52,491 bases of DNA, taken from positions 1 through 52,491 of the IMG/VR virus record IMGVR_UViG_3300044470_000064; one strand, 5' to 3'. Position numbers and translations under genes: made by a program. The notes below the pieces were generated by a model. That model was not told the origin of the DNA. It did not search any database and was given only the letters and a program-made list of their open reading frames with translations. The stretch comes from a virus (taxonomy: Duplodnaviria; Caudoviricetes). This document shows positions 16,721 through 51,107 of this stretch, in pieces (the stretch's first letter is position 1; each line of letters begins with the position of its first letter).

Positions 16721-18286
16721 GTGACCTCGAACCCCTGGACCGTGGCGGCCCGCCACTTCGTCCCGCCGACCGTGCGCTCCCGCTGGTACTGCCACCGCCC
16801 AGAGTGTGACGGCAAGCCCCACGATGGCTGGCAGGCCCACGCCCGCACCGCCCAGCGCCCTCCGGTGGGAGACTGGTTCGTTTGGCTCATGCTGGCTGGC
16901 CGAGGGTTCGGCAAGACCCGCGCCGGCGCCGAGTGGTTGGCAGAGCAGGCCCGGACCCACACGAACTCCGCATGGGGGCTGATCGCCCCGACGTGGTCAG
17001 ACGTGCGGAAGTGCGTCCGCGACCCCGAGGCGGGGCTGCTGGACTGCCTGGGCGCTGATCTCGGGGTCCACAACATCACCACTGGCACGGTAACCCTGAA
17101 GAACGGGTCGATCATCCACTGTGTCTCCGCCGACCAACCTGACCGTCTGCGAGGCTACAACCTCTGGGGCGCGTGGGTGGATGAGCTTTCGTCCTGGCGC
17201 AACCCCGAGGCGTGGTCCACGATGGTGCCGGCCTTGCGTGTGGGCTCACACCCGAGGATCGCTGCCACCACGACCCCCAAGGCGGTGGCGCTGATCCGCG
17301 ATCTTGTAGGGCGTCACGATGGCTCCGTGGTGATTGTCCGCGGCTCGACGTGGGATAACGCCGACAACCTCGCCCCGTCGGCTCTGGCTGAACTTCGCAC
17401 CCGGTATGAGGGGACGCGGATCGGCCGGCAGGAGTTGGAGGGCGAGTTGCTAGAGGACGTCCCCGGCGCCCTGTGGACCCTGGAGCTGTTCGAGGATCGT
17501 GAGATCAAGGGCGCGGACGGACAGGTCGAGCGCAGCCTAGCGGGACGCGCTGAGATTACACCTGAGTTGCGGCGGCTGGTGGTAGGTGTGGACCCGACCG
17601 GGGCCGACACGGGCAACCAGGACGAGTGCGGCATCGTGGTGGCCGGCAAGGGTGTCGATGGCCACGGGTACGTCCTCGCCGATCGGACATGCACGGCATC
17701 CCCCGCCGAGTGGGCTCGCAGAGCCGTGGCAGCCTACCGCGAGTTCGGCGCCGACAAGATCGTGGCCGAGGGCAACTTCGGCGCCCAGATGGTAGTCGAT
17801 ACCATCAAGACCGCCGACAAGTCCGTACCCGTCGAGATCGTCACCGCATCCCGATCCAAGCGCCAGCGGGCCGAGCCGGTGGCGGCTCTTTATGAGCAAG
17901 GACGCATACACCACGTCGGCCAACTGGCCAAGCTAGAGGACGAGCTGATCTCATGGACCCCCGAGAGCGGGTGGTCACCGGGACGCATGGACGCCCTGGT
18001 GTGGGCGATCTCGTGGCTCAACCTCGCCGGAGGGCAACTGGACACGCTCTGGCAGCGAGAACTCGACGCATCGCCCACTGTCGTGGCTGGCGGGTGGGCA
18101 GACGTTCCCGGCGAGGGATGCCCGCAGAGTGACGATGGCAGGCACTTCTGGAACGACGGCTTCTGCGTCCACTGCCGGGCGCCCCAGCGGCCAACCGTCG
18201 CCGTGCCCAGCGGACCCGGGTCAGCGTGTAGTCACTATCGGCGGCGCAACGGCGTGTGCATGCTCTGTGGCAAGGAGGCAGCGTGA
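16721..18286 (+). CDS. terL: Terminase large subunit with Cys-rich C-terminal extension
   Basis: AGRGFGKT Walker A, LRG, WVDE Walker B, TTTP, RQELEGE, VGVDP nuclease domain. Confidence 0.95.
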   Translation: MTSNPWTVAARHFVPPTVRSRWYCHRPECDGKPHDGWQAHARTAQRPPVGDWFVWLMLAGRGFGKTRAGAEWLAEQARTHTNSAWGLIAPTWSDVRKCVRDPEAGLLDCLGADLGVHNITTGTVTLKNGSIIHCVSADQPDRLRGYNLWGAWVDELSSWRNPEAWSTMVPALRVGSHPRIAATTTPKAVALIRDLVGRHDGSVVIVRGSTWDNADNLAPSALAELRTRYEGTRIGRQELEGELLEDVPGALWTLELFEDREIKGADGQVERSLAGRAEITPELRRLVVGVDPTGADTGNQDECGIVVAGKGVDGHGYVLADRTCTASPAEWARRAVAAYREFGADKIVAEGNFGAQMVVDTIKTADKSVPVEIVTASRSKRQRAEPVAALYEQGRIHHVGQLAKLEDELISWTPESGWSPGRMDALVWAISWLNLAGGQLDTLWQRELDASPTVVAGGWADVPGEGCPQSDDGRHFWNDGFCVHCRAPQRPTVAVPSGPGSACSHYRRRNGVCMLCGKEAA

Positions 18287-20874
18287 GAATCGGCCCCATG
18301 GAGATCAGCCGCGTCCACAAGGCGGCCGACTATCCGATCCCGTCGCCCGTGAACGGCACGAACGCGCCCCCGAACATCGAGCAGTCCCTACAGAACCAGG
18401 GCATGGGCTGGCAGCTTCCGTTCCCGCCAGGCCATCCGCTCTACCCGTACTTCGGCTATGGCGCGGAGCCGCGGCAGTTCGACTACCAGACCGGTGCCAA
18501 CATCACCGTCCGCCCTCGGTCGGGCAGGATCTCGTTCGACACGCTCCGGGCCTTCACGACCACTTGGGACGTGGCCAGGATGTGCATCGCCCACCGCATC
18601 AACTCGATCCGGTCGTTCGACTGGGCGATCGTCCCCGCCGACGGTTCGGAGGGTGACAGCGACATCGGCCTGGCGCTGGAGACTGGACGGAAGGCCATCG
18701 AGAAGCCTGACGGTAGGCTGCCCTACAAGCGGTGGCTTGCCAAGGCGCTGAACTCACGTCTCCGTTATGACGCCCTGACGCTCTACAAGCGACGGGACAT
18801 GCTCGGACGTGTGATGGCGCTAGAGGTCATCGACGGGACCACCATCGCCCCGATGTTGGACTACTACGGCCGTCTGCCGGTGGGTGACGCCCCGGCCTAC
18901 CTCCAGTTCGCCAACGGCGTGCCGTGGGACTGGCTGGCTGACCGGGACGTCATCTATGCGCCCTACTTCCCGCAGGAGGATTCGCCTTACGGCTGGGCGC
19001 CGGTCGAGGACGTGATCGCCGTCGCCAACATCGACGAGCGGATGACGCTCCATCTGTTGGAATACTGGAACACGTCGAACCTACCCGCCGGCTGGCTGGA
19101 GGCTCCGCCCTCGTGGGACGACCCCGCCAAGCTGGACGACTTCCAGGCGCGGCTGAACGCCAAGCTCATGGGCGACCAGCAGAAGAAGGTGCAGGCTCAC
19201 GTCGTGCCACAGGGGACGAAGTTTACCCCGATCCGTTCGGAGTCGTTCGACACGGACGCCTACCTCTGGGGTTTCAGGAAGGGATGCGCTGCCTTCGGGG
19301 TGGTGCCGCAGGACCTCGGGGTCACGCTAGACATCAACAAGGCCACGGGGGAGACGCAGATAGACGTCCAGTCCCGGATCGCTGATCGTCCGATGTGTGA
19401 GGATCTCGACGGGCTCATCACCAGTTACCTCCAGGACGACCTGGGGCTGCCGGTGAAGATGCAGACCTCCTACTCGGCCGAGAAAGAGGATCGCGTCGCT
19501 GACGCCAATGTGTGGAAGATCGGCACCGAGGGCGGGGCTGTCACCGTGGACGAGTGGCGCTCCGAGATGTTCGGGCTGGAGGTCGATTCCGACCGGCCCG
19601 TGCCACGGTTCATCATGTCCTCTCGGGCGGGGCCGATCCCGCTGGCCAACCTGTTCGCCATCTCCGGCCCGATCAACCCCGCCACAGGTGGGCCGCTGGA
19701 CACGACACCGCTGGTGGACACCGGTAAGAAGCCCTTCGAGGCTGCCGCCGGCGTGGCTCCCGGAAAGACGCTCAACACTCCCGGCGCGCTCGTCTCGACG
19801 TTCAACCCTGATGAGCCACAGTTCCCGCAGGACGAGCTGTCTGCCACGCCTGCCCCCACCACGATCGCCGCAGTGGCCAAGAGCGAGACTGAGGGCATCA
19901 CGTCCGAGACTGGCCTAGTGGGTTACGACGAGTTCAGAGCCTCGCATCCTGAGCTAGACGACGACGAGGACGACGAGGACGACCGGGTGGCAATCCAGAA
20001 GGAACTCGGCCGCTGGCGTGACTTCGCCCGCAACCGCGTCAAGACTGGCAAGCCGCTCCGGGCCTTCGCCTCCACGGTGATCCCCGCTGATGTGTCAGAG
20101 CACATCACCAAGGCACTCGCTGGCTGCACCACGCGGGCTCAGGTTGACGCCGCCTTCGCGGAGGCCGCCAAGAGCGCCGATTTTTTTCTAGGTGACGTAG
20201 CGCCCGTTCACAAGGCGCATCCCCTTGTTCCATCCGCCACCGTGGGGAGTATTCCTGCCCTTGGCGTACATGTCCGCGATGTTGTCCTTTTGGGTCCCCA
20301 GGAAGAGATGGTCCGGGTTCACGCAGCCCCGGTTGTCGCAGTGGTGCAGAACCAACAGACCAGCGGGAATCGGCCCGTGGAAGAACTCCCAGGAAACCCG
20401 GTGGGCAAGGCGAACCCCATGAGGGTCGCCGCGGCGCCAGCGTCCCCGATGCACCCCGACGAGCGTGTGGAAGTACCCGTAGCCCCCTTTGAGGGCGCTG
20501 CTCGTTTGGGCACCAAGCCAGTTCCAACACCCGTCACCAAAAGAAACCCTGCCCCAGAATCGCAAGAACTCTTCCATAAGACCCATTATACCACCTCGCG
20601 GGCTAACCCTACTGCGGCAGTAGCCTACCCGGTCAGGAAGGCCAAGCACCCCACCGATGCCCTGCTCGACCAGATCGTGGGGCACTACGCCCCGCTGGTT
20701 GGCCAGGCGCTTGCCAGTGCGTTGCCATCACAGTCCCGGCTCGCCCAGGGGAACCTGACGCCCGCCGACCTCGACCTCTCGCAGCTACAGGCGGTGCTCA
20801 CCGAGGCCACCACGGATGCGTGGGTCGGCGGGGCGCTGATCGCGGCCGATGCCGTGACCAACCGCAGGGGCTAA
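18283..20874 (+). CDS. Portal protein with long C-terminal extension (contains an in-frame antisense HNH insertion)
   Basis: Follows TerL, AAGGAGG SD; [26 protein letters not shown] portal motifs. Confidence 0.9.
20188..20577 (-). CDS. HNH homing endonuclease nested antisense in the portal ORF
   Basis: [52 protein letters not shown]; TGGTATAAT extended -10 7 nt before ATG. Confidence 0.9.
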
Positions 20875-20875
20875 A

Positions 20876-21154
20876 GCCCCGCCCCGCCACGCCCAACCGC
20901 GCCTCACCCGGCCTTGCCTGCCACGCCATGCCAGACCCAGCCATGCCACGCCCGACCCAGCCCAGACTTGCCGGCCTAGCCTGACCGCGCCTAGCCTAGC
21001 CACACCTGCCCCGCCATGCCCTGCCTCGCCCGACCCCGCCATGCCGCGCCTCGCCTGCCACGCCGAGCCGCGCCCGGCCGAGCCGCGCCTTGACCCGCCT
21101 TGCCTGCACCGCCATGCCCCGCCCCGCCACGCCCAACCGCGCCTCACCCGGCCT
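20876..21154. repeat. 39-bp perfect direct repeat inside the array (20876-20914 and 21116-21154)
   Basis: gccccgccccgccacgcccaaccgcgcctcacccggcct occurs twice, 240 bp apart. Confidence 0.95.
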
Positions 21155-21172
21155 CGCCTAGCCGCGCCTGCC
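20876..21172 (-). ncRNA. GGY-NN pentamer array (54 pentamers, 6 units), putative guide-RNA array of the adjacent Cas7/RAMP-like gene
   Basis: Minus strand parses as (GGY NN)n with variable NN, punctuated by 4-nt GGCA/TGCA/GGCC units; the repeat is certain, RNA function is inferred. Confidence 0.75.
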
Positions 21173-21184
21173 AATAACGCGATT

Positions 21185-21682
21185 TTAGTTGGTCTCCCTC
21201 TCTACAGCATCGAGCGCTTGCCAGACGGGCGCCAACTCCTTGAGTGACTGATAGCGACGACGGAAGCCCTTGAGCGCCGCCAACGCCTCGCGGAGCACGT
21301 AACTCCGCTGACCTGGCTCTGCCAGGGCCACGGTGAGCAGAGAGTACCCCTCGCTCTGGCCGTCGTCAGGGGCCGCCATCACGACATGCACGAACGCCGG
21401 GGCATCCTCGCGGGTGCCTTCCGCATCAACGCATCGAACGGAGTTGATGATCTGACGGGCCTGCTGGACGCGCCACGCCTCAGCACCCACCCGATCATCC
21501 CACTCCAACGTCGGGTGCAGGGGGCTGTCCTCCGGCCGAGCGACGTCCACATAGGTCGCGGGGGCACAGACCCCCTCTCGGGCGGCGATCTCTGCCACCG
21601 TCTCTCCCACGACCTGAGCGGAGACGGTGCAGCCCGGACCATGTCCCGACCAAACGTAACGGGTCGCTGTAGCAAGGGTCAT
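21185..21682 (-). CDS. Accessory protein of the RAMP cassette (165 aa), function unknown
   Basis: ATG overlaps the RAMP stop (TGATG); ARPEDSPLHPTLEWDD..GAEAWRVQQARQII conserved-looking motif. Confidence 0.8.
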   Translation of the reverse strand: MTLATATRYVWSGHGPGCTVSAQVVGETVAEIAAREGVCAPATYVDVARPEDSPLHPTLEWDDRVGAEAWRVQQARQIINSVRCVDAEGTREDAPAFVHVVMAAPDDGQSEGYSLLTVALAEPGQRSYVLREALAALKGFRRRYQSLKELAPVWQALDAVERETN

Positions 21683-22275
21683 CACACCACCTCGAACAGA
21701 CCGAACTGTCCGTCCTTCTCGGGGCGCCACTCGCCGATCCCCACCGCGAAGCCTGCCAGGTTGAGCAGGTTCACGATCTGATCGACGGAGATCGAACGGG
21801 CGTTGAAGATGATCGGCAGTTTAGCCGACCACTCGGGAAACTCGGCGCGGTAGCGGATATCAGCCGTTCCCATGCCGACCCTGACCATGTCCTCCCGACT
21901 GTGGGGTGTCCCCTCGATCTTGACCATGTCACCGAGGATGTGGAAGGCGCCGCGCAGGAACGTCATCTTCATGTCGCAGTAGGTTCCCGCCCGCACGGCG
22001 GCACCCTTGAACGCGACGGACGGGAAACCGTAGCCCCCACCGGGGTACGGGTAGAGCGAAGCCTGATAGTCGGCTTCGGGGTCCTTGGCCTCCTTGGCCT
22101 GCTTGGCCGCCTTGGTCTGCTTGTCTAGCATCTGCCGCTTGGCCTTCTCCGACCAGCGGTGACAGATCAGCGGAGACAGCCCCCGCACGGTCAGCTCGAT
22201 CCGCTGAGTGTCTAGTTCGACCCGCTGCACCACGGCGGTTTCCTCTGGTGCCTTCGTCGTTGTCGTGCCGGTCAT
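21682..22275 (-). CDS. Stand-alone Cas7/RAMP-like protein (Vipr-like)
   Basis: IELTVRGLSPLICH first strand, FPSVAFKGAAVRA helix, C-terminal Gly-rich loop AGFAVGIGEWRPEKDGQFGLFEV; GAGGAG SD. Confidence 0.75.
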   Translation of the reverse strand: MTGTTTTKAPEETAVVQRVELDTQRIELTVRGLSPLICHRWSEKAKRQMLDKQTKAAKQAKEAKDPEADYQASLYPYPGGGYGFPSVAFKGAAVRAGTYCDMKMTFLRGAFHILGDMVKIEGTPHSREDMVRVGMGTADIRYRAEFPEWSAKLPIIFNARSISVDQIVNLLNLAGFAVGIGEWRPEKDGQFGLFEVV

Positions 22276-22332
22276 AGCCGCTCCTCTCGGCCGTCGGGCC
22301 GTTACAAGACCCCGGCGGCCGAATACTTCCCT

Positions 22333-22362
22333 ACTATACGCGTCCCGCTACGGGAAAGTCAA
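22333..22362 (-). promoter_or_regulatory. Sigma70-type promoter of the RAMP cassette, TTGACT-N18-TATAGT
   Basis: Near-consensus hexamers; followed by a 5'UTR hairpin and SD. Confidence 0.75.
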
Positions 22363-22738
22363 GGAGGGCAGATGCCAGGCCCCACCACTCTGACGGCCCC
22401 CGCCCAGTCGGCGCAGTCACACGGGCAGCACTTAGACATCTCTGATTTCCCTCCGGTGGATGCGGGCAATTCGTTCCACCCTCTTGCAGAAGGGCGAGGT
22501 CAAGTCCTCGGAACCGCAGACCCCCTGGGGAAGCCCGGCGTCGAGGCGGTCGAACAGATCGTCCCAGTCAATGGGATATTCGGAGTACCAACCCTCCACG
22601 ATGGATTCGATGTCCTCCCGGAGCGCATCGGCCTCCGCAGCCGTCTCTAGGAACCACCAATCGCCCATAGCGCCAGTCTAGCACAACAGGAGGGCAGATG
22701 CCAGGCCCCACCACTCTGACGGCCCCCGCCCAGTCGGC
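22362..22738. repeat. 51-bp perfect direct repeat (22362-22412 and 22688-22738) containing the MuF SD and first codons
   Basis: aggagggcagatgccaggccccaccactctgacggcccccgcccagtcggc twice, 326 bp apart. Confidence 0.95.
22432..22668 (-). CDS. Antisense moron gene, hypothetical acidic protein
   Basis: TGCTAGACT-N6-ATG leaderless promoter; lies between the 51-bp repeats. Confidence 0.7.
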   Translation of the reverse strand: MGDWWFLETAAEADALREDIESIVEGWYSEYPIDWDDLFDRLDAGLPQGVCGSEDLTSPFCKRVERIARIHRREIRDV

Positions 22739-23261
22739 ACTGCCCGCCTCGATGCAGGACACGGCATGGGGAGACTGGACGCCCGGTTGGGCTGGCGCGG
22801 CGGCCACGATCAGCGACCCTGGCCTGGACGCGGTGCTCTCGGGCCTCGGGTTCACCCTGAAGGGCCTCGCCTCGTCCACCATCGACCAGATCGGCTCCCA
22901 GATCGCTCAGGGGGTCGCCTCTGGCGCCTCGATGGATTCTATCGCCATGGGTCTCCGGGATTCGTTGGGCGGGGACGCCTCGCGGGCCTACACCATCGCT
23001 GACACCGAGTGCGCCCGTGCCGCTCAGGATGCGAGCATGCAGACCTACCAGGCCAACGGCATCGAGATGCTCGACTGGCTCGTGGCAGATGATCCCTGTG
23101 ACGACTGCCAGGCGAACGCCGACGGTGGTCCGTATGCGACGGCCGACTTCCCGGACTTGCCAGCTCATCCGAGATGCCGGTGTGCATCGTCCCCGAACAT
23201 CGAATCGCTGACTGGCGGGACCTCCGACGACACCACCAATGACACAGACCAGGGAGAGTAA
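22698..23261 (+). CDS. MuF / SPP1 gp7-like minor head protein
   Basis: [16 protein letters not shown]...[15 protein letters not shown]. Confidence 0.85.
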
Positions 23262-23263
23262 CT

Positions 23264-24739
23264 ATGGTCCGACGCGTTCTCGCTGTCCTTACCGCGCTGG
23301 CGGTCGCAGCCCTTGGGTTGTTCGCGCTGGGCTCGTCCAACCGCGTCTCGGCCGCCCCCCTGCCTGGCCTCAGCGTATCTGGTAACCACCTGGTGAACGC
23401 CTCCGGGCAGACCGTCGTGCTGCACGGGGTCGACCGGTCGGGCACCGAGTACATGTGCGTCCAGGGCGGCGGCATCTTCGACGGCCCGTCCGATGCCACC
23501 TCGGTGGCCGCGATGGCCTCGTGGGGGATCAACGCCGTCCGCATCCCTCTCAATGAGGACTGCTGGCTGGGCATCAACGGAGCCAACCCGGGCGGCGCCA
23601 TCTATCAGTCGGCGATCGAAGCATACGTCACGCTCCTGCACTCGGCCGGGATATACGCGATCCTGGACCTCCAGTGGACCGCCCCCGGTTCGGTCGAGGC
23701 GACGTACCAAGAGAACATGGCCGACTACAGCAACTCGGTGCCCTTCTGGGCGTCTGTTGGCGCCGCTTTCAAGAACGACCCGGCGACCCTCTTTGACCTC
23801 TTCACCGAGCCGAACAACATCGGCATCGTGGGTTGTGTGGCGGGCGCTCCTGCCGGTTGTGCTACCGCCGTCGCCGAATCCGCCGCCGGCAACGGTGAGG
23901 GCGCCTTCTGGTGGTGCGCCTACGTAGGGACAGGCTGCATCGCCAACCAGAACTCGGCCAAGTTCGGGAACTGGCAGATCGCCTCCATGCAGGACATGCT
24001 TACCGCCGTCCGCGGTGCCGGAGCATCCAACGTCGTCATGGTCGGGGCCGACCAGTTCGCCAACGACCCGAGCGCATGGCTGGCGAATGTGCCGGTCGAT
24101 CCTGACCATCAGCTCGCCATGAGTTTCCACGTGTACAACTTCAACTACCCCTGTGTGAGCCTCGCCTGCTGGAACTCCGAGCTCCTGCCCATCGCCGCCT
24201 CGTACCCGATCATCTCGGGTGAGATCGGCGAGAGTGACGGCAGTGCGAGCTTCATCGACGGCTACATGGCTTGGGCGGATGCCAACGGGGTCTCGTACCT
24301 CGCGTGGACCTGGGACACCTGGGGTTGCGGAGATTCGGCCGTGCTGATCTCTTCCTACACCGGAACCGCCTGTGCCGGGTATGGCGCTGGATACCAGGCG
24401 CACCTGGCCACGCTGGCTGGCAGCACCCCAACACCGACGAGCACACCGACGGCGACGCCGACCAGTGGACCAACGTCCACACCTACCCCTAGTCTGCCGA
24501 CACCCACCCCCACGTCCACACCTACGGCAGTGCCGACCCCGACACCCACGGCGGTGCCGACGGCCACCCCCACGCCACGTCCGACGAGCACGCCGCGACC
24601 AACTGCTACCCCGCGGCCGAGCGCGACGCCTACACCTACTCCGACGCCGGAGCCGAGCTTCACCGAGACGATCACCGTCAACGGACACACCTGCACGATC
24701 ACCGTGACTAACGGCGTGGTTAGCGGGACTTGCACATGA
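23264..24739 (+). CDS. Secreted glycoside hydrolase family 5 (cellulase-like) with Pro/Thr linker
   Basis: Signal peptide, [28 protein letters not shown] acid/base, FHVY, GEIG nucleophile, YLAWTW. Confidence 0.85.
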
Positions 24740-25885: not shown

Positions 25886-27676
25886 ATGGCGATTGCCCTC
25901 GCCCAACAGGTAGGTGGTGGCGCCACCGTTACTGGGCAGACTACCTGCACGCCTGTGATCTCGTCGTCGGCGGGCAACCTGCTTGTCCTTATCGTCACCT
26001 GGTCCAGTTCGGGCCTGGGTACCAACGACAGCATCGCCGTCAACACAAACGGCGGTACCTGGGTCGGCGGCACCAATGTCGCCAACACGTCCCCGAACGG
26101 TTGCTCGTTCTCTGCCTATCTGCCCAATAACGCGGGCGGATCGCTGTCGTGGACGGCAACCTTCACCCCCGGCTATGGCAACACTACTCTCGGATGGACG
26201 TGGAACATCCTGGAGTTCTCCGGGATCGCCACCTCCTCGCCGCTCGACCTGGCGATGGTGTACAAGACCAACACCGCCCAGACGGCGTGGACGACCACGG
26301 CCGCCTCGGGGACGACGGTCTCCACCGATCTGCTGGTGGCCATCTATGGTGGGCACATCAGCTCGACCCTGACCTTCACGGCCAACGCCTCGGGGTCGTT
26401 GCCGTCGTCGGGGTGGGCGAACACCACACAGGTCGTCGCCGCGCTGGGCGGCGCCGCCAACTGTCACAACATCGGCTCGTACGTCGTCCCTGGCGCCACT
26501 GAGACCTCGCCGGTCTGCGTCATCACATGCTCGGCTTCTGTCACCTATGAGGGATTCCTCTGGACCTTCAAGGTCGGCGGCACCACTGACACCCCGACCG
26601 GCACTGGTGCAGAGACCGCCGCATCGACAGCCAGCCTGACGAGCGGCCAGGCCCTCACCTCTACCGCAGGCTCTACAGGCGCAGCCACCGCGAACGTCAC
26701 GACATCCCAGGCCCTCACCTCGACTGCGGCCGAGACGGGCGCATCCACGGCGAATGTCACCGCAGCGCAGACGCTATCCTCGACAGCGGCGGGCACGAGC
26801 GCCTCGACTGCTAACCTGACGAGCGGGCAGGCGCACACATCCACGGCGGCGAGCACTGGGGCTTCGACAGCCAACCTCACCGTCTCCCAGGCCCTCACCT
26901 CGACTGCGGCCGATGTTGGGGCTTCCACCGCCAACCTCACTGTCGCGGTAACGGCGACGGGCTCCGCCGCCGAGACAGGGGCCTCATCCTCCACTCTGAC
27001 GGAGGTTGCGGCTCATACTGGCGTCGCAGCGGAGATAGCAGCAGCGAGCGGCGCGCCGAGCGTGGCCAGCGGGGTTAGCCCGACTGGTACGGCCTCGGGC
27101 ACCAGTGGCGCTACAGCCAACCTTACGGTCTCTCAGGCGCTGACGAGCACGGGCGCAGAGATGGGCGCCTCGACCGCGAACCTGACCGAGACGGCGCTCC
27201 ACACCTCGACTGCGGCTGAATCGAGCGCTGCGAGCGGCGTCCCCAGCATCAACGCTGCGCCTGTTACCCCAACGGGAACGGGTGCGGGCACCAGTTCCGC
27301 GACCGCGAACCTATCGGTCACCGTCCTGCTGGTAAGCCTTGCCGCTGGGGTGGGCGACTTGGCGGCGAGCCTCACGCAAGCGGCGACCCTCGCTGGCATC
27401 GCACTCGGGACTAGCGGGGCAAGCGGCCTACTCTCCACGTTGCAGCAACTCGCGGGAACGGGTGCGAGCGTCAGCGGTGCATCGGGTACCCCGGCGCTCC
27501 TCATGCTGGCCGCCGCAGTCTACACGGCCACCGTCCGCAGCGGACAGGGATTCACCAGGGCCAGGACCGGCGCAACGGTCGCAACGTCCAGGACTGGCCA
27601 GGGCAATACCAGGGCGAGGACGGGAACGGTGACAGATACAGTCCGCACCGGCGATCTCACCGTCCACGCTCGATAG
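25886..27676 (+). CDS. Thr/Ala/Ser-rich virion fibre-like protein with ~20-aa repeats
   Basis: Beta-rich N-terminal domain then repeats of ASTANLTxSQALTSTAAETG. Confidence 0.7.
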   Translation: MAIALAQQVGGGATVTGQTTCTPVISSSAGNLLVLIVTWSSSGLGTNDSIAVNTNGGTWVGGTNVANTSPNGCSFSAYLPNNAGGSLSWTATFTPGYGNTTLGWTWNILEFSGIATSSPLDLAMVYKTNTAQTAWTTTAASGTTVSTDLLVAIYGGHISSTLTFTANASGSLPSSGWANTTQVVAALGGAANCHNIGSYVVPGATETSPVCVITCSASVTYEGFLWTFKVGGTTDTPTGTGAETAASTASLTSGQALTSTAGSTGAATANVTTSQALTSTAAETGASTANVTAAQTLSSTAAGTSASTANLTSGQAHTSTAASTGASTANLTVSQALTSTAADVGASTANLTVAVTATGSAAETGASSSTLTEVAAHTGVAAEIAAASGAPSVASGVSPTGTASGTSGATANLTVSQALTSTGAEMGASTANLTETALHTSTAAESSAASGVPSINAAPVTPTGTGAGTSSATANLSVTVLLVSLAAGVGDLAASLTQAATLAGIALGTSGASGLLSTLQQLAGTGASVSGASGTPALLMLAAAVYTATVRSGQGFTRARTGATVATSRTGQGNTRARTGTVTDTVRTGDLTVHAR

Positions 27677-32461: not shown

Positions 32462-33081
32462 TCTCGCACTTCTACCACGTATACGCTGTCGGAGGATGGC
32501 GGGACGTGGTGGCGGAGCACCTGGACGCCGTGGTGGGCAGTGGCCTGCCGATCGCCGTCATCAACTTGGGTGTCGTCGGGACGCCCGAGGCGCAGGAACA
32601 GGCGTGTGCTCTGGTCAGATCGCGAATCCCGGTTAGGGTCGTGGCCCGCGCCGAACAGGGTGCTGAGGAGATCACCCTCGCCGCGCTCTGGCGTGAATCC
32701 CCACCCATCGTGTTGTATGCCCACACCAAGGGCGTTCACGTCGCCACGGCGTTCAACGCGGCTTGGCGGCGCAAGATGACCCGGAGCCTGGTGTCGGGAT
32801 GGCGCGACTGCCTCCCCCTGTTGGACGGCCACGATCTGGTCGGTTGCCACTGGCTCTCGCCCAGTTCGCTGGAGGCGTACGGGAACGGCCCGAGCACTCC
32901 CTGCTTCGGCGGGAATTTCTGGTGGGCCACCCGAGATTGGCTGGCCACACTGGGTCCTCCCCGGCAAGACGGCACCCGTTTCGACGCTGAGACATGGATC
33001 GGTGGCGGTGGGAATCCAGAAACACCGCCGCGCGTAGCAGACCTGAATCCTGGATGGCCCGCCATGGAGTTGTTTGGATGA
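32458..33081 (+). CDS. Putative glycosyltransferase-like protein
   Basis: HFYH, E..TL..L, VLYAHTKG, FGGNFWWA, RFDAETWIG. Confidence 0.55.
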   Translation: MISHFYHVYAVGGWRDVVAEHLDAVVGSGLPIAVINLGVVGTPEAQEQACALVRSRIPVRVVARAEQGAEEITLAALWRESPPIVLYAHTKGVHVATAFNAAWRRKMTRSLVSGWRDCLPLLDGHDLVGCHWLSPSSLEAYGNGPSTPCFGGNFWWATRDWLATLGPPRQDGTRFDAETWIGGGGNPETPPRVADLNPGWPAMELFG

Positions 33082-36685: not shown

Positions 36686-37206
36686 TTGTCCTGCCGTACA
36701 CCCACATCTCCCCCGGCGTGAGAGAAGCACTCACGGCTACGGGTCGGGAGTGGCGAGAGGTGGACGTCAGCGGGTCTGACACCGCCTACTGGGAACTCCT
36801 GCGCGACCTCTGGGCCGAGGGGAAGACGTTCTACAGCGTGGAGCACGACGTCATCGTGCGGCCCGACACGTTCGCGGATCTGGAAGCCTGCCCCGAGCCC
36901 TGGTGTGGGTTCCTCCTGCCCTACCTGGGCGGCGAGTACCCCGGCATGGGGTGCGTGAAGTTCACCGATAGCATCATCGCCGCCGTCCCCGATGCCCTGA
37001 TTCAGTCGGGCCGGATGAGCAACGGCAACCACCCCCCCGGCCACTGGTGCTCACACGACCACTTCCTCCAGATGGTGGTCCTCCCCGCTGCAGTGGGGCA
37101 TTACAAGCACGTCCATGGGCCGGCACTGGGACACTATCGCGAGTACGAGGGCCTGCCCCAGCCGAGCCACGGGTGCGTCGGCTCTCGCATGAAGGAGACT
37201 GCGTGA
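36682..37206 (+). CDS. Glycosyltransferase-like protein (paralog of 31829-32461)
   Basis: VEHDV, ACPEPWC, MGCVKF. Confidence 0.55.
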   Translation: MIVLPYTHISPGVREALTATGREWREVDVSGSDTAYWELLRDLWAEGKTFYSVEHDVIVRPDTFADLEACPEPWCGFLLPYLGGEYPGMGCVKFTDSIIAAVPDALIQSGRMSNGNHPPGHWCSHDHFLQMVVLPAAVGHYKHVHGPALGHYREYEGLPQPSHGCVGSRMKETA

Positions 37207-38096
37207 CGCCCGCCATCTTCACAAATCCCAACACGACAAGCCATCCCACCGTCGTGCCCTACGTCTCGGTGGACGACTACACGAACGCGCCGACCTCGGT
37301 GGACACGTCGCAGCTTATCCCCGGCGGGACAGCGCAAGCCAACCTCGTCGAGCTAGGCAACGTGATCCGGCGCGCATCGTCATGGGCCGACAACCTCTGC
37401 TTCCAGATCCTCGCCGCGACGCTAGACACGCAGTCTACCCCCGGCGCCGTGTTGGTGAAGGAGGACGGGCTTATCCAACTTGTCTGTGACTTCTGGCCCG
37501 TGCTAGAGGTGGACAGCCTCTCCGTGGGTACCCGCCCCTCAACGCTCGGCGCCCTCATGGACGACGCGGACATGTGGCCCGTGGGTCGCTCGGTCATCGA
37601 GGCTCGTGTCCTTGGCGTCGGTGGAGCGTACCCCGGCAGCCGCGTCTACGCTCAGTGGACCTACTGGAACGGTTGGCTACACGCCACCCTTTTGTCCAGC
37701 GTCGGCGCTGCGGTGCAGTCCCTCCCGCTGAGCACCACGCTCCCCGCCGCCGCTGCCAACCAGACGCTCATCATCTGGGACGGGGCGGACACCGAGGCGG
37801 TGACCGTGTCGGCCACGTTCACGGGCGGCACCTTGCTCCCCCTGACCGCGCCGACGCTCTACGCTCACGCGAACGTCACCCTGCCTCACTCCACATGTGT
37901 CTCGGGGTTGGAGGACGCTGCCCGGCAGGCGGTGTTCTCCCTGACCTCGTGCCTCATCAAGGTGCGCGGGACGCAGGCCATCGTGGCACCGAGCATCGGC
38001 GCGGCACCGAGCCGCGAGGCGCTCATTGAGAGCGGCGGGTTGGAAGATTTTCAGGTGGCCGTGGACCTGCTCGACCGATACAAGCGGGTCGCCTAG
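37203..38096 (+). CDS. Head-tail adaptor/connector
   Basis: PYVS...Y, L...IRRASSWADN.C, LLDRYKR C-terminus; position. Confidence 0.7.
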   Translation: MTPAIFTNPNTTSHPTVVPYVSVDDYTNAPTSVDTSQLIPGGTAQANLVELGNVIRRASSWADNLCFQILAATLDTQSTPGAVLVKEDGLIQLVCDFWPVLEVDSLSVGTRPSTLGALMDDADMWPVGRSVIEARVLGVGGAYPGSRVYAQWTYWNGWLHATLLSSVGAAVQSLPLSTTLPAAAANQTLIIWDGADTEAVTVSATFTGGTLLPLTAPTLYAHANVTLPHSTCVSGLEDAARQAVFSLTSCLIKVRGTQAIVAPSIGAAPSREALIESGGLEDFQVAVDLLDRYKRVA

Positions 38097-49859: not shown

Positions 49860-51107
49860 GTGAACTGGATCGCTCAACTCCTCCGACTGATCGCGTCCTG
49901 GTTCACCAGGCCGACGCCGAAGCCTGCGCCAACGCCCGTTCCGACGCCAACCCCCACGCCGACGCCCACACCTGTGCCGGTGCCGGTCCCCACGCCGGTG
50001 CCGACGCCTGTGCCGACCCCCACCCCAGTGCCGACACCCGTGCCGGTCCCAACCCCCACTCCGGTGCCAACGCCCGTGCCCGTCCCTGCGCCAACGCCGA
50101 CCCCCACGCCGACCCCGGTGCCAACGCCGGTCCCCGGCGTTCCCGGCATCGACGCCGAGATGATCGACACCCTCCCGGCGGACGTTCTCGCTGAGGCGCA
50201 GGTGATCTTCTTCTACGGCTCCCCGTTCGGTTCCACGCAGGGACCGGCCCGGGTCACCCCTGCCGCCTTCGTGGCCCAGCAGGCCGCTGCTGGGAAGGCC
50301 ATCTGGGGCGGGTATTTTCCCGGATCTGACCCGGCATCTGCTCTGGCCGAGGCGGAAGCAGCGCCGCGGGACACCGGCGTGTGGGTGGACCTAGAGCCGG
50401 AGGTCGAGGCCGACGAGCAGAGCCTCGCGTGGTGCGCCGCCTTCGGTGACTTCATGCTCGCCAACGGGATGCCCTGTGGGATCTACTCGCACGAGGGCAC
50501 CTGCGCCGACCTCGCTGGCCACTTTAGCGCCCAGTGGTGGGACGGCCAGCCTCAGCCGACCAGCCTTCCCTCGGCGACCGCGATCCAGTACGGTCAACAG
50601 ACCGCGAGCAACGGGGTGCCCTTCGACCGCGACGCCTGCGACGCCTACTTCCTCGATCCCCCAGCCCCGGTCGCGACGATCCAGCAGGACCTCGTCGCCT
50701 ACGTCTCGACGCACCTCGGGACCGAGGTCGACGTTCCAGGGTGGCCCGGCCCGAATGACCCCGAGTGCACCGACTGGGCGCTCTCGTGGTTCCTGCACCG
50801 AGGTGGCAATGGTGGACTGGTTCACGGTAACGCCGTCGCGTGGGCCGGCCAGGACTGGACCGCCTCCGGTTGGGTATGGGTGGCCAACACCCCGACCAAC
50901 ATGCCGAGCATCGGCGACATCGTCACCTGGGGCCCGACCCCGAGCCTGGGGATCGGCGCCGCCGGCCACACCGGCATCGTGTACGACAACGTCACGGTGA
51001 TGAGCCTTGAGACGGCCGACCAGAACTGGGGCGCGAACCGCGACGTGGAGCTGGAGACGCACAGCTACGTCGGCGTTCTCGGCTGGCACACGCCGAGTAA
51101 GCCATGA
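49860..51107 (+). CDS. Endolysin: amphipathic N-terminus, Pro/Thr/Val repeat, degenerate GH25-like domain, CHAP domain
   Basis: WVDLE, GIYS, IQY...FDRD; ECTDWA, GNA..W, GDIV.W, GHTGIV, DQNW. Confidence 0.8.
49911..50136 (+). repeat. Coding (PT/PV)n low-complexity repeat
   Basis: About 75 codons of alternating Pro. Confidence 0.85.

What the first reader, a model, noticed from the sequence alone, without database searches (positions are those of the whole stretch)
20876..21172. Array grammar: 54 pentamers in six units punctuated by a 4-nt GGCA-type unit
Reading the minus strand by hand, 52 of 54 pentamers begin GGC or GGT and two begin GTC. The phase resets at 4-nt units. NN strings: U1 (21172-21109) GC TA GA CG GA GC TG GT GG GG AT GG; U2 (21108-21060, opens TGCA) AA GG AA GC TC CG GC TC GT; U3 (21059-21011) GA GC AT GG CG GA AG AT GG; U4 (21010-20977) GT TA TA GC CA TA; U5 (20976-20923, opens GGCC, possibly U4+U5 with a 1-nt deletion) AA TG TG CG GT AT TG CT AT GT; U6 (20922-20876) AA CG GA GC TG GT GG GG. 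A fixed scaffold with free variation at exactly two positions is unlike a slippage microsatellite, and period 5 is incompatible with codon structure. Each unit carries 12-24 variable nt, about the information content of a CRISPR spacer. The GGCA punctuation may mark processing sites or guide boundaries (inference).
Basis: partly seen in the sequence, partly recalled or inferred. Interest (0 to 1): 0.9.

Follow-up and report, generated by a model that had tools for sequence, protein, structure and literature searches.

The report
Phage VIPR guide-RNA array
The pentamer array is almost certainly the guide-RNA array of a phage VIPR system, a CRISPR-like RNA-guided gene silencer first described in 2026 preprints, and it lies right after the gene for its RNA-binding protein, so it is real and well read but no longer new.

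Summary
Window 20876-21172 (minus strand) is 54 GGY/GTC-NN pentamers in six units of 12, 9, 9, 6, 10 and 8, separated by 4-nt units. This is far above chance.

It is a vrRNA array of a VIPR system (Viral Interference Programmable Repeat; bioRxiv 10.64898/2026.04.26.720920). Just upstream on the same strand lie a sigma-70-like promoter, a 197-aa gene and a coupled 165-aa accessory gene.

- The family profile of the 197-aa protein hits PDB 36pp 'SUSP1 Vipr protein' at E=1.1e-37.
- Its model has a Cas7/Csm3-like fold.
- The same family lies beside GGCNN arrays in 82 of 120 viral contigs found by the pentamer pattern alone, against 0 of 78 control contigs.

The GGCA punctuation matches the paper's 'staggered arrays' of vrRNAs that overlap by 1 nt. 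Across the 120 loci, 207 of 271 4-nt units are GGCA, and units cluster at 7-12 repeats.

I found no natural target above controls. No RNA data exist for the locus.

Verdict: a new member of a known kind. The staggered, tail-less architecture is still untested by experiment.

The parts
22333..22362 (-). Sigma-70-like promoter (TTGACT, 18 nt, TATAGT; 10 of 12), about 57 nt upstream of the vipr start. Probable promoter of the vipr-vap-array operon.
   Evidence: It is the only promoter-like site found in 20100-22800, where shuffles gave a mean of 0.3. This is a consensus match only; its function is inferred.
21682..22275 (-). vipr gene, 197 aa: a RAMP-fold protein that binds the GGY repeats.
   Evidence: A profile of 49 family members hits PDB 36pp_D 'SUSP1 Vipr protein' at E=1.1e-37. 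The window protein alone hits it at E=7.7e-6, with R143, E182, W183 and R184 aligned to SUSP1 R138, D177, W178 and R179. The AF2 model has pLDDT 93.2. The top Foldseek PDB hits are Csm3/Cas7-type subunits, E about 1e-5. PHROG match: phrog_4652, function unknown.
21185..21682 (-). Accessory (vap-like) gene. The probable start is the ATG at 21682-21680, which overlaps the vipr TGA stop by one base (TGATG), giving 165 aa. The longest ORF as listed is 21185-21730 (181 aa).
   Evidence: sequence. PHROG match: phrog_15946, function unknown. A family profile is found in 28 of 120 pentamer-array loci and 0 of 78 control loci. Homologues lie next to vipr in 27 Mycobacterium phage records, 5 Gordonia phage records and one cyanophage record. 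It shows no similarity to SUSP1 vap1 (E=31).
20876..21172 (-). vrRNA array of the staggered, tail-less kind: 54 GGYNN pentamers in six guide units.
21109..21168 (-). Guide unit U1, 12 repeats. It is preceded by GGCA (21169-21172) and followed by TGCA (21105-21108).
21060..21104 (-). Guide unit U2, 9 repeats, one of them a degenerate GTC repeat. It is followed by GGCA (21056-21059).
21011..21055 (-). Guide unit U3, 9 repeats. It is followed by GGCA (21007-21010). In run X3 the dominant contig differs here at three bases, all of them NN positions.
20977..21006 (-). Guide unit U4, 6 repeats, which is shorter than the published range of 9-16. It is followed by GGCC (20973-20976).
20923..20972 (-). 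Guide unit U5, 10 repeats, one of them a degenerate GTC repeat. It is followed by GGCA (20919-20922).
20879..20918 (-). Guide unit U6, 8 repeats. Seven of its NN pairs repeat U1 repeats 4-10. It is followed by GGC (20876-20878).
20867..20880 (-). Terminal hairpin GGGGC-TTTA-GCCCC, formed by the last repeat and the flank. The stop codon of the plus-strand portal ORF lies in its loop. It may serve as a 3' cap or terminator of the array transcript.
   Evidence: sequence. In one search the 61-nt end folds at -34.7 kcal/mol, z = -2.66, and 3 of 200 shuffles fold as well. Its function is inferred.

Best explanation
The array is the guide-RNA (vrRNA) array of a phage-borne VIPR system. The operon on the minus strand runs promoter (22362-22333), vipr (22275-21682), a translationally coupled accessory gene (21682-21185), then the array (21172-20876).

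Mechanism, taken from the published SUSP1 system:
- One Vipr protomer binds each 5-nt repeat. Two neighbouring protomers hold the GGY bases, flipped out.
- The two N bases are left free to pair with DNA.
- The filament reads double-stranded DNA as NNx NNx ..., skipping one target base per repeat.
- It sits on the target and silences transcription of a competing phage, prophage or satellite.

In this locus the guides are not separated by structured tails. Instead a 4-nt unit (GGCA in 4 of the 5 internal separators counted with the leading one; also TGCA and GGCC) shifts the repeat register by -1. I take each such shift as the boundary between two guides, whether or not the RNA is cut there. That gives six guides of 12, 9, 9, 6, 10 and 8 repeats.

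What is shown and what is inferred:
- Shown here: the grammar of the array, the Vipr homology and fold, the genome-wide linkage of this protein family to such arrays in the same orientation, and variation confined to NN positions in a natural variant.
- Taken from the papers: binding mode, skip rule, silencing.
- Inferred: transcription from the promoter, boundaries at GGCA, and the function of the accessory gene.
For: 1. Grammar. There are 54 pentamers: 43 GGC, 9 GGT and 2 GTC, with variable NN. The pattern is far above shuffles.

2. The Vipr gene lies 510 nt upstream on the same strand. The family profile hits PDB 36pp_D 'SUSP1 Vipr protein' at E=1.1e-37. The single sequence hits it at E=7.7e-6 and BLASTP gives 6e-11. 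The residues the structure paper names for G2 and Y3 binding (R138, W178, R179) are identical (R143, W183, R184), and D177 is E182 (paper 10.64898/2026.04.26.720927, section 5). The family alignment keeps 'PL..H' near the N-terminus and 'G.GD.RP'.

3. Fold. AF2 gives pLDDT 93.2 and pTM 0.84. The best PDB matches are Csm3/Cas7-type RAMPs, E=1e-5 to 5e-4, TM 0.4-0.57.

4. Linkage found without using the protein.
   - By BLAST clustering, 80 sources (77 of these stretches, two mycobacteriophage loci and the window) carry one protein family within 2.5 kb. It is on the array's strand in 79 of 80, with the gene upstream in 65 and downstream in 14.
   - By HMM, 82 of 120 stretches carry it, against 0 of 78 contigs fetched with unrelated patterns.

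5. Across 5078 pentamers of these arrays, positions 1-3 are G 96%, G 96% and C 90% / T 7%. Position 4 is A 33%, G 34%, T 19%, C 14%, and position 5 is near uniform.

6. Punctuation is general. Of 271 4-nt units, 207 are GGCA. Of 192 units bounded by 4-nt units on both sides, 121 have 7-12 repeats, with mode 10. This fits one guide per unit, and the paper's fig. S18 legend describes staggered arrays with 1-nt overlap.

7. Natural variation. In run X3 the dominant contig (depth 70.5) differs from the window inside the array at 21022, 21026 and 21027 only. All three are NN positions of U3 (GA to AT, AG to GG), and no GGY base changes.

8. A promoter-like site lies upstream of vipr, and the vipr stop overlaps the accessory gene's start.
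Against: - No RNA evidence. No listed run holding the locus is RNA, so transcription, processing and ends are untested.
- No target found. Under the 1-nt skip rule nothing in the window beats shuffled guides. Exact scans gave 0 hits for U1, U5 and U2 in viral contigs and 0 for U1 and U5 in metagenome contigs. U3 gave 1 hit, in a contig that looks lower in GC, about what chance gives. An 8-NN seed shared by U1 and U6 gave 38 hits against 39 for its reversed-order control.
- Mismatch-tolerant searches in genomes of the likely host group also found nothing: U1, 0 of 251 genomes (control 1 hit); U5, 0 of 117; U3, 1 of 117, antisense in a membrane-protein gene.
- My positive control failed. A SUSP1 guide, as I parsed it, gave 10 hits in genome contigs and none in Enterobacteriaceae. 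These negatives are therefore weak.
- U4 (6 repeats) and U6 (8) are shorter than the published 9-16.
- There is no conserved 3' tail or pseudoknot per guide, unlike SUSP1.
- The paper did not confirm staggered arrays by sRNA-seq.
- The accessory gene has no detectable similarity to SUSP1 vap1, and its fold could not be predicted.
- The VIPR type (I-VII) could not be assigned, because the type tables are in supplements that are closed.
Confidence: 0.93

Rival explanations
1. The locus is a VIPR array, but it is not a working weapon of this phage. It could be a decaying or duplicated relic. It could also be a decoy set, whose RNAs load Vipr proteins (its own or a rival's) onto harmless sites, as satellites do with solo vrRNAs.
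For: - No natural target was found for any unit.
- U6 repeats the core of U1.
- U4 has only 6 repeats, and two repeats start GTC.
- The October 2026 preprint reports decoy vrRNAs and solo vrRNAs (abstract and passages).
- 38 of 120 pentamer loci show no Vipr hit on the fetched stretch.
Against: - vipr is intact, models with high confidence and keeps the RNA-contact residues.
- It lies in one operon-like unit with the array.
- GGY is kept in 52 of 54 repeats.
- A co-occurring variant changes only NN positions, as expected under selection on guides.
- Failure to find targets is expected for an uncultured host with few genomes, and my positive control failed too.
Confidence: 0.04
2. The array is a protein-coding, low-complexity gene: the 129-aa ORF 20785-21174 on the minus strand.
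For: An ORF is open across the whole array. In mycobacteriophage Donkeykong the homologous array is annotated as CDS gp48.
Against: - In a GGYNN array all three frames read the same five codon classes, and only NN=TA in one phase gives a stop. Open frames are therefore expected (reasoning from the sequence).
- The ORF has no Pfam or PHROG match.
- Phage Brocalys leaves the same array unannotated.
- The 4-nt units shift the peptide register.
- Arrays differ in length and unit number between close relatives.
- The published RNA data show that such arrays make small RNAs bound by Vipr.
Confidence: 0.01
3. The array works as DNA: a tandem protein-binding site, for example for packaging, replication or a silencer. 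It lies in the packaging/head gene block.
For: It lies between the portal and MuF-like head genes, next to the terminase gene. Period 5 puts GGC on alternate faces of the helix (reasoning).
Against: - In other phages the same arrays lie in quite different places, such as the early lytic operon of Cluster F mycobacteriophages. They always travel with vipr and on its strand, 79 of 80.
- The cassette looks inserted here. A related contig matches up to 20843 and then runs on with unlike sequence.
- The strand-specific G-rich sense orientation argues for RNA.
Confidence: 0.01
4. The array is an RNA leader or trailer that binds a ring protein in the manner of TRAP (GAG-NN repeats), acting as a sponge or attenuator with no guide function. 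This was my own first idea.
For: It has the same formal grammar as TRAP sites: a fixed triplet plus a 2-nt spacer, about 11 repeats (recalled knowledge, not from a call). Arrays often lie just upstream of a ribosome-binding site and ATG.
Against: The linked protein is a Vipr/RAMP, not a TRAP-like ring. The published structures show a helical filament that presents NN for DNA pairing. NN would not need to be hypervariable for a sponge.
Confidence: 0.01

Closest known systems
VIPR type II system of Escherichia phage SUSP1 (vipr, vap1 and four vrRNAs; bioRxiv 10.64898/2026.04.26.720920 and .720927; PDB 36pp)
   Same: - A small RAMP-fold Vipr protein. The profile hit is E=1.1e-37, and R138, W178 and R179 are conserved.
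- An accessory gene directly after vipr.
- Arrays of GGY-NN pentamers on the same strand, with about 9-12 repeats per guide.
   Different: - SUSP1 repeats are mostly GGT. Each vrRNA is a separate block followed by a tail of about 40 nt, with one block upstream and three downstream of the genes.
- Here the repeats are mostly GGC. The six guides abut with only a 4-nt unit between them, and there is no tail per guide, only one terminal hairpin.
- Vipr identity to SUSP1 is detectable only over the last 65 residues, at 35%.
- The accessory proteins are unrelated by sequence.
'Staggered vrRNA arrays' of the same paper (fig. S18; legend only seen)
   Same: [quoted passage not shown] A 4-nt GGCA before the next GGY is such a 1-nt overlap. 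I see this architecture in many of the 120 viral loci.
   Different: I could not see the figure, the example locus or the type it belongs to. The paper says sRNA-seq confirmed the ribozyme-interspersed and single-vrRNA architectures, not the staggered one.
Class 1 CRISPR backbone (Cas7/Csm3 filament on crRNA)
   Same: RAMP fold with thumb and glycine-rich loop. One protomer binds per fixed number of RNA bases, with periodic base flipping. Guides are arrayed next to the effector gene.
   Different: - The period is 5, not 6.
- The constant part is inside every repeat, not at the ends of a spacer.
- The target is read with gaps (2 of every 3 bases).
- There are no cas1/cas2, no repeat-spacer array and no other Cas genes in the window's cassette.
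TRAP-RNA recognition in Bacillus (11 (G/U)AG triplets with 2-3 nt spacers); recalled, not from a call
   Same: A fixed triplet plus a two-base spacer, about a dozen repeats, with one protein subunit per repeat.
   Different: TRAP is a closed ring that regulates one operon, and its spacers carry no information. Here the spacers are the message, and the protein is a RAMP filament.

Membership tests
VIPR system | A Vipr protein (minimal RAMP: RRM core, thumb, glycine-rich loop) encoded at the locus | tested here: met
   The 197-aa ORF 21682-22275(-). Profile against PDB 36pp_D 'SUSP1 Vipr protein': E=1.1e-37. Model pLDDT 93.2. Foldseek top hits are Csm3/Cas7-type subunits.
VIPR system | Residues that hold the GGY bases (SUSP1 H17, R138, D177, W178, R179 per the structure preprint, section 5) | tested here: met
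   R143, W183 and R184 are identical, and E182 stands for D177 (alignment). A conserved H in 'PL..H' (H39 of the window protein by my count) is seen in the family alignment, but it was not aligned residue by residue to H17.
VIPR system | vrRNA made of tandem GGY/NN (YNNGG) pentamers, 9-16 per guide | tested here: met
   54 pentamers, of which 52 are GGY. The units have 12, 9, 9, 6, 10 and 8 repeats, so 4 of 6 fall in the published range and U4 and U6 are shorter.
VIPR system | GGY conserved while NN is hypervariable | tested here: met
   Position frequencies over 5078 pentamers of 120 loci plus the window. The three differences of the X3 variant inside the array all fall on NN.
VIPR system | Array in the intergenic space flanking vipr, on the same strand | tested here: met
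   The array begins 13 nt after the accessory gene's stop. The orientation rule holds in 79 of 80 sources.
VIPR system | A vipr-accessory (vap) gene | tested here: inconclusive
   A conserved second gene is present and coupled to vipr. It is unrelated to SUSP1 vap1 and has no Pfam, NCBIfam or PADLOC hit. Its fold is not available. Whether it is one of vap2-6 is in the closed supplements.
VIPR system | Invariable structured 3' tail after each vrRNA (SUSP1 clade: pseudoknot) | tested here: not met
   There is no tail between units, only one hairpin after the last repeat. The paper treats tail-less staggered arrays as another VIPR architecture, so this bears on the subtype, not on membership.
VIPR system | Expression as small RNAs that co-purify with Vipr | not testable with these tools
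   No listed holder of the locus is an RNA run.
VIPR system | Natural targets matching the NN string under the 1-nt skip rule, in competing mobile elements | tested here: inconclusive
   There was no enrichment over reversed or shuffled controls in the window, viral contigs, metagenome contigs or 251 and 117 genomes of the likely host group. The positive control failed.
CRISPR-Cas | Repeat-spacer array with constant repeats of 25-40 nt, plus cas1/cas2 or an effector module | tested here: not met
   No such repeats were found around the array, in 19800-23400. No PADLOC hit for the cassette proteins. No Rfam match in 20500-21500.
Slippage microsatellite or contingency locus | Identical short units whose number varies by slippage | tested here: not met
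   The units differ at NN. Tandem Repeats Finder gives only 60-88% matches for overlapping periods of 5, 10, 15, 20, 25 and 34.

The most novel reading that the evidence does not exclude
In this tail-less 'staggered' subtype the array may never be cut into separate vrRNAs. The 4-nt GGCA unit would be a register break that ends one Vipr filament and starts the next on a single long transcript. That would give a string of six independently programmed filaments, a multivalent silencer that could clamp several sites of one rival genome at once. Guide turnover would come from point changes at NN (seen in run X3) and from recombination between the repeated U1/U6 ends. The same subtype lies in cultured Cluster F1 mycobacteriophages. 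The main texts of two of the three VIPR preprints do not mention mycobacteria, so the idea could be tested in Mycobacterium smegmatis.
Probability: 0.15. Interest if true: 0.6.

Novelty: new member of a known kind. Interest (0 to 1): 0.4.

Why it matters
VIPR is a newly described way to read DNA with RNA, in which information lies in two of every five guide bases and two of every three target bases. It has been proposed as older than CRISPR. This locus adds several things.

- It is an example in an uncultured GC-rich siphovirus. One of the phage's genes is 82% identical to a gene of a MAG titled Candidatus Dormibacteria.
- The pentamer pattern alone pulls out the Vipr family in 82 of 120 viral contigs.
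- The GGCA-punctuated, tail-less architecture is common, and its unit sizes (mostly 7-12) fit one guide per unit. How those guides are delimited has not been tested in the texts I could read.
- The same subtype lies in 27 cultured Mycobacterium phage records and 5 Gordonia phage records. There the array is either unannotated or called a protein. That offers an easy experimental system and a correction to annotation.

Tried and rejected
1. TRAP-like ring-protein sponge, origin or pac site, G-quadruplex. These were my first ideas before the protein family was identified. I dropped them once the linked protein proved to be Vipr.

2. Rfam. No match in 20500-21500 at E up to 10.

3. Literature before the protein hit. 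'pentanucleotide repeat' plus 'mycobacteriophage' gave one microsatellite survey (listing only), which was not relevant. A search for 'vrRNA' found three VIPR preprints and one language-model preprint that mentions the term once (listing only).

4. Target hunting under the NNx rule.
   - The window itself: skips of 0, 1 and 2 give nothing above 200 shuffles. Skip 3 only finds the array itself.
   - Viral contigs, exact: U1 0, U5 0, U2 0, U3 1.
   - The U3 hit is in frame, with skips at wobble positions, in a 773-aa ORF whose sequence looks terminase-like to me (not searched against any family). That contig looks lower in GC, and about 1-2 such hits are expected by chance (my estimate).
   - The seed shared by U1 and U6 gave 38 hits against 39 for the reversed-order control. 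The best extension to U1 was 20 of 24. The wobble frame was the longest frame in 17 of 38 hits against 15 of 39 controls. There was no convergence on one protein family.
   - Metagenome contigs, exact: U1 0 and U5 0.
   - Genomes around G001: U1 with up to 3 mismatches, 0 of 251 (control 1); U5 with up to 2, 0 of 117; U3 with up to 1, 1 of 117, lying antisense in a membrane-protein ORF.
   - U2 and U6 were not searched with mismatches. U4 (12 specified bases) is too short for the collection scans.
   - 284 guides parsed from all fetched arrays against 1.84 Mb of fetched loci: 34 hits at 90% or better against 33 for controls. The 3 perfect ones were one low-complexity L036 guide hit and two window-guide hits in loci that I had fetched with window patterns.

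5. Two Cluster F1 mycobacteriophage guides in genome contigs: 0 hits each.

6. Positive control. A SUSP1 guide as I parsed it gave 10 hits in genome contigs, none in Enterobacteriaceae. The control failed, so exact scans of these collections cannot be trusted to find true targets.

7. Host by terminase. No relative in genome contigs.

8. RNA evidence. No RNA holder is listed.

9. Minor contigs of X2 and X3 with other pentamer units at joints inside the array. I did not interpret them, because such joints in repeats of metagenome graphs are unreliable.

10. Accessory protein. The profile against the PDB gave nothing below E=0.045. The Atlas gave only viral hypothetical clusters.

12. Supplementary tables and data of the preprints (type assignments, lists of loci) are closed. 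They may already list this kind of locus or the mycobacteriophage ones.
Full report
**What is there.** On the minus strand, window 21172-20876 reads GGCA and then six runs of GGYNN pentamers (12, 9, 9, 6, 10, 8). The runs are separated by the 4-nt units TGCA, GGCA, GGCA, GGCC and GGCA, and the array ends in GGC. Of the 54 pentamers, 43 start GGC, 9 GGT and 2 GTC. Successive GGC triplets are 5 nt apart 32 times, 10 nt 10 times, 4 nt 4 times and 9 nt twice. A four-unit GGC pattern matches 11 times in the window, all here, against 0.10 expected (0 of 100 shuffles reach 11). The GGY version matches 37 times, 36 of them here, against 0.60. The first and last 44 nt are 98% identical, so U6 repeats U1 repeats 4-10. 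The last repeat pairs with the flank in a GGGGC-TTTA-GCCCC hairpin; the 61-nt end folds at -34.7 kcal/mol, z = -2.66. Rfam has nothing here.

**Surroundings.** The window is a viral record of 52.5 kb. It carries a terminase large subunit, a portal, a MuF-like head protein and a tape measure on the plus strand. The array belongs to a minus-strand block set between the portal and MuF-like genes. In order, the block holds:
- a promoter-like site TTGACT-18-TATAGT at 22362-22333;
- a 197-aa ORF, 22275-21682;
- a second ORF whose ATG overlaps the first ORF's TGA (TGATG) and which ends at 21185;
- the array, beginning 13 nt later;
- further on, an HNH endonuclease gene at 20685-20188.

**How the identity was found.** A blastn of the region against cultured phages matched only the array itself, at about 70% identity, in Cluster F mycobacteriophages (genus Cheoctovirus). 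There a like array lies in the early operon after the repressor, cro-like and antirepressor genes. They contain arrays of 10 to more than 120 repeats, in contigs of 39-76% GC, many with the same 4-nt punctuation.

I clustered all ORFs within 2.5 kb of those arrays, without any prior idea of the protein. One family turned up in 80 sources: the window's 197-aa ORF, two mycobacteriophage loci and 77 of the stretches. It is on the array's strand in 79 of 80. A second family, the window's 181-aa ORF, turned up in 26. With HMMs the counts are 82 of 120 and 28 of 120 pentamer loci. Both are 0 of 78 in contigs fetched with unrelated patterns.

A profile of 49 members of the first family hits one PDB entry, 36pp 'SUSP1 Vipr protein', at E=1.1e-37. 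That name led to three 2026 preprints on VIPR.

**What the papers say, and what I read of them.**
- Paper 10.64898/2026.04.26.720920. I read the abstract, all Results, the Discussion, Methods sections 18, 20, 26 and 27, and legend passages.
  - VIPR loci hold a minimal RAMP protein (Vipr), usually one accessory gene (vap), and vrRNAs of 9-16 YNNGG repeats in which GGY is conserved and NN is hypervariable.
  - The NN string specifies double-stranded DNA read as NNx (the 1-nt skip rule). Binding silences transcription.
  - Natural targets are satellites, prophages and other VIPR loci.
  - There are seven types. Array architectures include 'staggered arrays with overlapping vrRNAs' (the fig. S18 legend gives a 1-nt overlap), ribozyme-interspersed arrays and single vrRNAs. 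Only the last two were checked by sRNA-seq.
- Paper .720927. I read the abstract and sections 5 and 6. One protomer binds per repeat. G1 is held by H17 and D177, G2 by R138 and W178, and Y3 by R179 of the next protomer. A thumb-bundle pocket takes the one skipped target base.
- Paper 10.64898/2026.10.15.759431. I read the abstract and some passages. VIPR decides the contest between SUSP1 and its satellite. Satellites and phages also carry solo vrRNAs, some of them decoys.

**Membership.** The window protein aligns to SUSP1 Vipr over its last 65 residues (35% identity; E=6e-11 pairwise; E=7.7e-6 against the whole PDB). R143, W183 and R184 match R138, W178 and R179, and E182 stands for D177. The AlphaFold model is confident (pLDDT 93.2). 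Its best structural matches in a PDB copy that predates 36pp are Csm3/Cas7-type subunits, as the paper says of Vipr.

Over 5078 pentamers the array grammar is G 96%, G 96%, C 90% / T 7%, then two variable bases. I therefore file the locus as a VIPR system.

It is not of the SUSP1 kind in detail. In the SUSP1 locus, which I fetched, each vrRNA is a separate GGT-rich block with a tail of about 40 nt. The SUSP1 accessory protein shows no similarity to the window's. I could not assign one of the seven types, because those tables are in closed supplements.

**The punctuation.** A 4-nt unit before the next GGY equals a 1-nt overlap of two pentamer registers, which is what the fig. S18 legend describes. 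In my sample 207 of 271 4-nt units read GGCA. Of 192 units bounded on both sides by such breaks, 121 have 7-12 repeats, with mode 10, and 100 lie in the published range of 9-16. The window's 12, 9, 9, 6, 10 and 8 are typical.

Two neighbouring protomers share each GGY. A missing base must therefore break the filament register. That makes GGCA a natural guide boundary even without cleavage. This last step is my inference.

**Natural variation.** Three DNA runs labelled peat metagenome hold 94-97% of the region's sampled words, and one of them may be the source of the window.
- Run X2 tiles the array with no difference.
- In run X3 the dominant contig differs inside the array at exactly three bases, all at NN positions of U3. 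The other differences listed for X3 lie in the HNH gene. With 108 of 297 array bases being NN, three of three has a chance of about 0.05. This is a small but fitting sign of guide change with the scaffold kept.
- Run X4 has a 4.8-kb contig that matches up to 20843 and then runs on with unlike sequence. It comes from a relative that does not have this cassette at this place.

**Targets.** Nothing in the window exceeds shuffled guides, which agrees with the paper's report of no self-targeting.
- Exact scans gave 0 hits for U1, U2 and U5, and one chance-level hit for U3, in viral contigs.
- Exact scans gave 0 hits for U1 and U5 in metagenome contigs.
- An eight-pair seed common to U1 and U6 gave 38 hits, against 39 for the same pairs in reverse order. 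There was no excess of wobble-frame hits and no common protein family.

A host hint came from a GH5-like gene of the phage. It is 82% identical to a gene in a MAG titled Candidatus Dormibacteria. Searches of that group's genomes with mismatches allowed found nothing beyond chance.

A positive control with a SUSP1 guide did not recover enterobacterial targets. The collections hold one genome per species, and my parse of that degenerate guide may be wrong. The negatives are therefore weak, and the targets remain unknown.

**Rivals.**
- A coding reading fails. Open frames are intrinsic to this grammar, the ORF has no family, and relatives vary in unit number.
- A DNA-site reading fails on the strict strand rule and on the different genomic places of the array in other phages.
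- A relic or decoy reading cannot be excluded, but the intact, coupled vipr gene and scaffold-preserving variation speak against decay.

**Verdict.** The thing is a new member of a kind published in April-October 2026.

What is still open, and testable in cultured Cluster F1 mycobacteriophages that carry the same vipr, accessory gene and GGCA-punctuated arrays:
- how tail-less staggered arrays are divided into guides;
- what the accessory protein does;
- what the guides aim at.

Noticed in passing
window 18256-23261: The VIPR cassette splits what is one portal-MuF fusion gene in relatives. phrog_2662 ('portal protein', 717 positions) matches the 872-aa plus-strand ORF at profile positions 30-410. 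It matches the separate ORF 22698-23261 at positions 581-711. The plus ORF stops at 20874, in the loop of the array's terminal hairpin. A contig of run X4 matches up to 20843 and then continues with unlike sequence.
   Followed up: partly
window 22362-22412 and 22688-22738: A perfect 51-nt direct repeat carries a ribosome-binding site and ATG (AGGAGG...ATG). It flanks a 78-aa minus-strand ORF (22432-22668) that has no family hit. It looks like a duplication made when that piece was inserted at the start of the MuF-like ORF.
   Followed up: no
window 20188-20685 (-): An HNH endonuclease gene (Pfam HNH_3, E=1e-15) lies just downstream of the array. It is antisense to the still-open tail of the 872-aa portal ORF. 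It was not among the protein families shared by three or more array-bearing loci. It is therefore more likely a free-standing homing endonuclease than a VIPR accessory gene.
   Followed up: partly
window 23264-24739 (+): A secreted-looking 491-aa ORF with a Pro/Thr-rich linker lies inside the head-gene block. By my reading of its sequence it is a GH5 glycoside hydrolase; I ran no family search with a hit for it. Its best relative (82% identity) is in a MAG titled Candidatus Dormibacteria, and further relatives are in Dormibacterota, Actinomycetota and Chloroflexota MAGs. It has no PHROG match. It may be an auxiliary gene and a hint to the host.
   Followed up: partly
L002 (Brocalys 32520-32739), L003 (Donkeykong 36870-37256): Cluster F mycobacteriophages (27 records), 5 Gordonia phages and cyanophage Cy-LDV1 carry homologues of both the vipr and the accessory gene. 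Brocalys and Donkeykong have GGCA-punctuated arrays just upstream of vipr. In Donkeykong the array is annotated as a protein, gp48; in Brocalys it is unannotated. 'mycobacter' occurs 0 times in the main texts of two of the VIPR preprints.
   Followed up: partly
L013:1986-2351, L036:6100-6311: Some arrays are punctuated by 9-nt units instead of GGCA: GGCGTTCAG-like in L013 and GGCGAGCCG in L036. L013's array starts a few bases after a TTGACG-17-TATACT promoter-like site. These may be further array architectures.
   Followed up: no
38 of the loci L004-L123: 38 of 120 pentamer-array stretches show no Vipr hit on the DNA fetched. Some are short or cut at the array. Others could be the 'solo vrRNAs' described in the October 2026 preprint.
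   Followed up: no
L232 (G001:C30:15759-16286): The MAG that holds the closest relative of the phage's GH5-like gene has a weak match to the Vipr profile (E=1.3e-5, 228-aa open frame). I did not look at it further.
   Followed up: no
window 26612-26940 and 49916-50129: There are other tandem repeats in the window. One has period 60 with 5.5 copies, inside ORF 25886-27676. The other is a G/C-rich block of periods 6, 12, 18 and 36 inside ORF 49860-51107. They are probably coding repeats of structural proteins.
   Followed up: no
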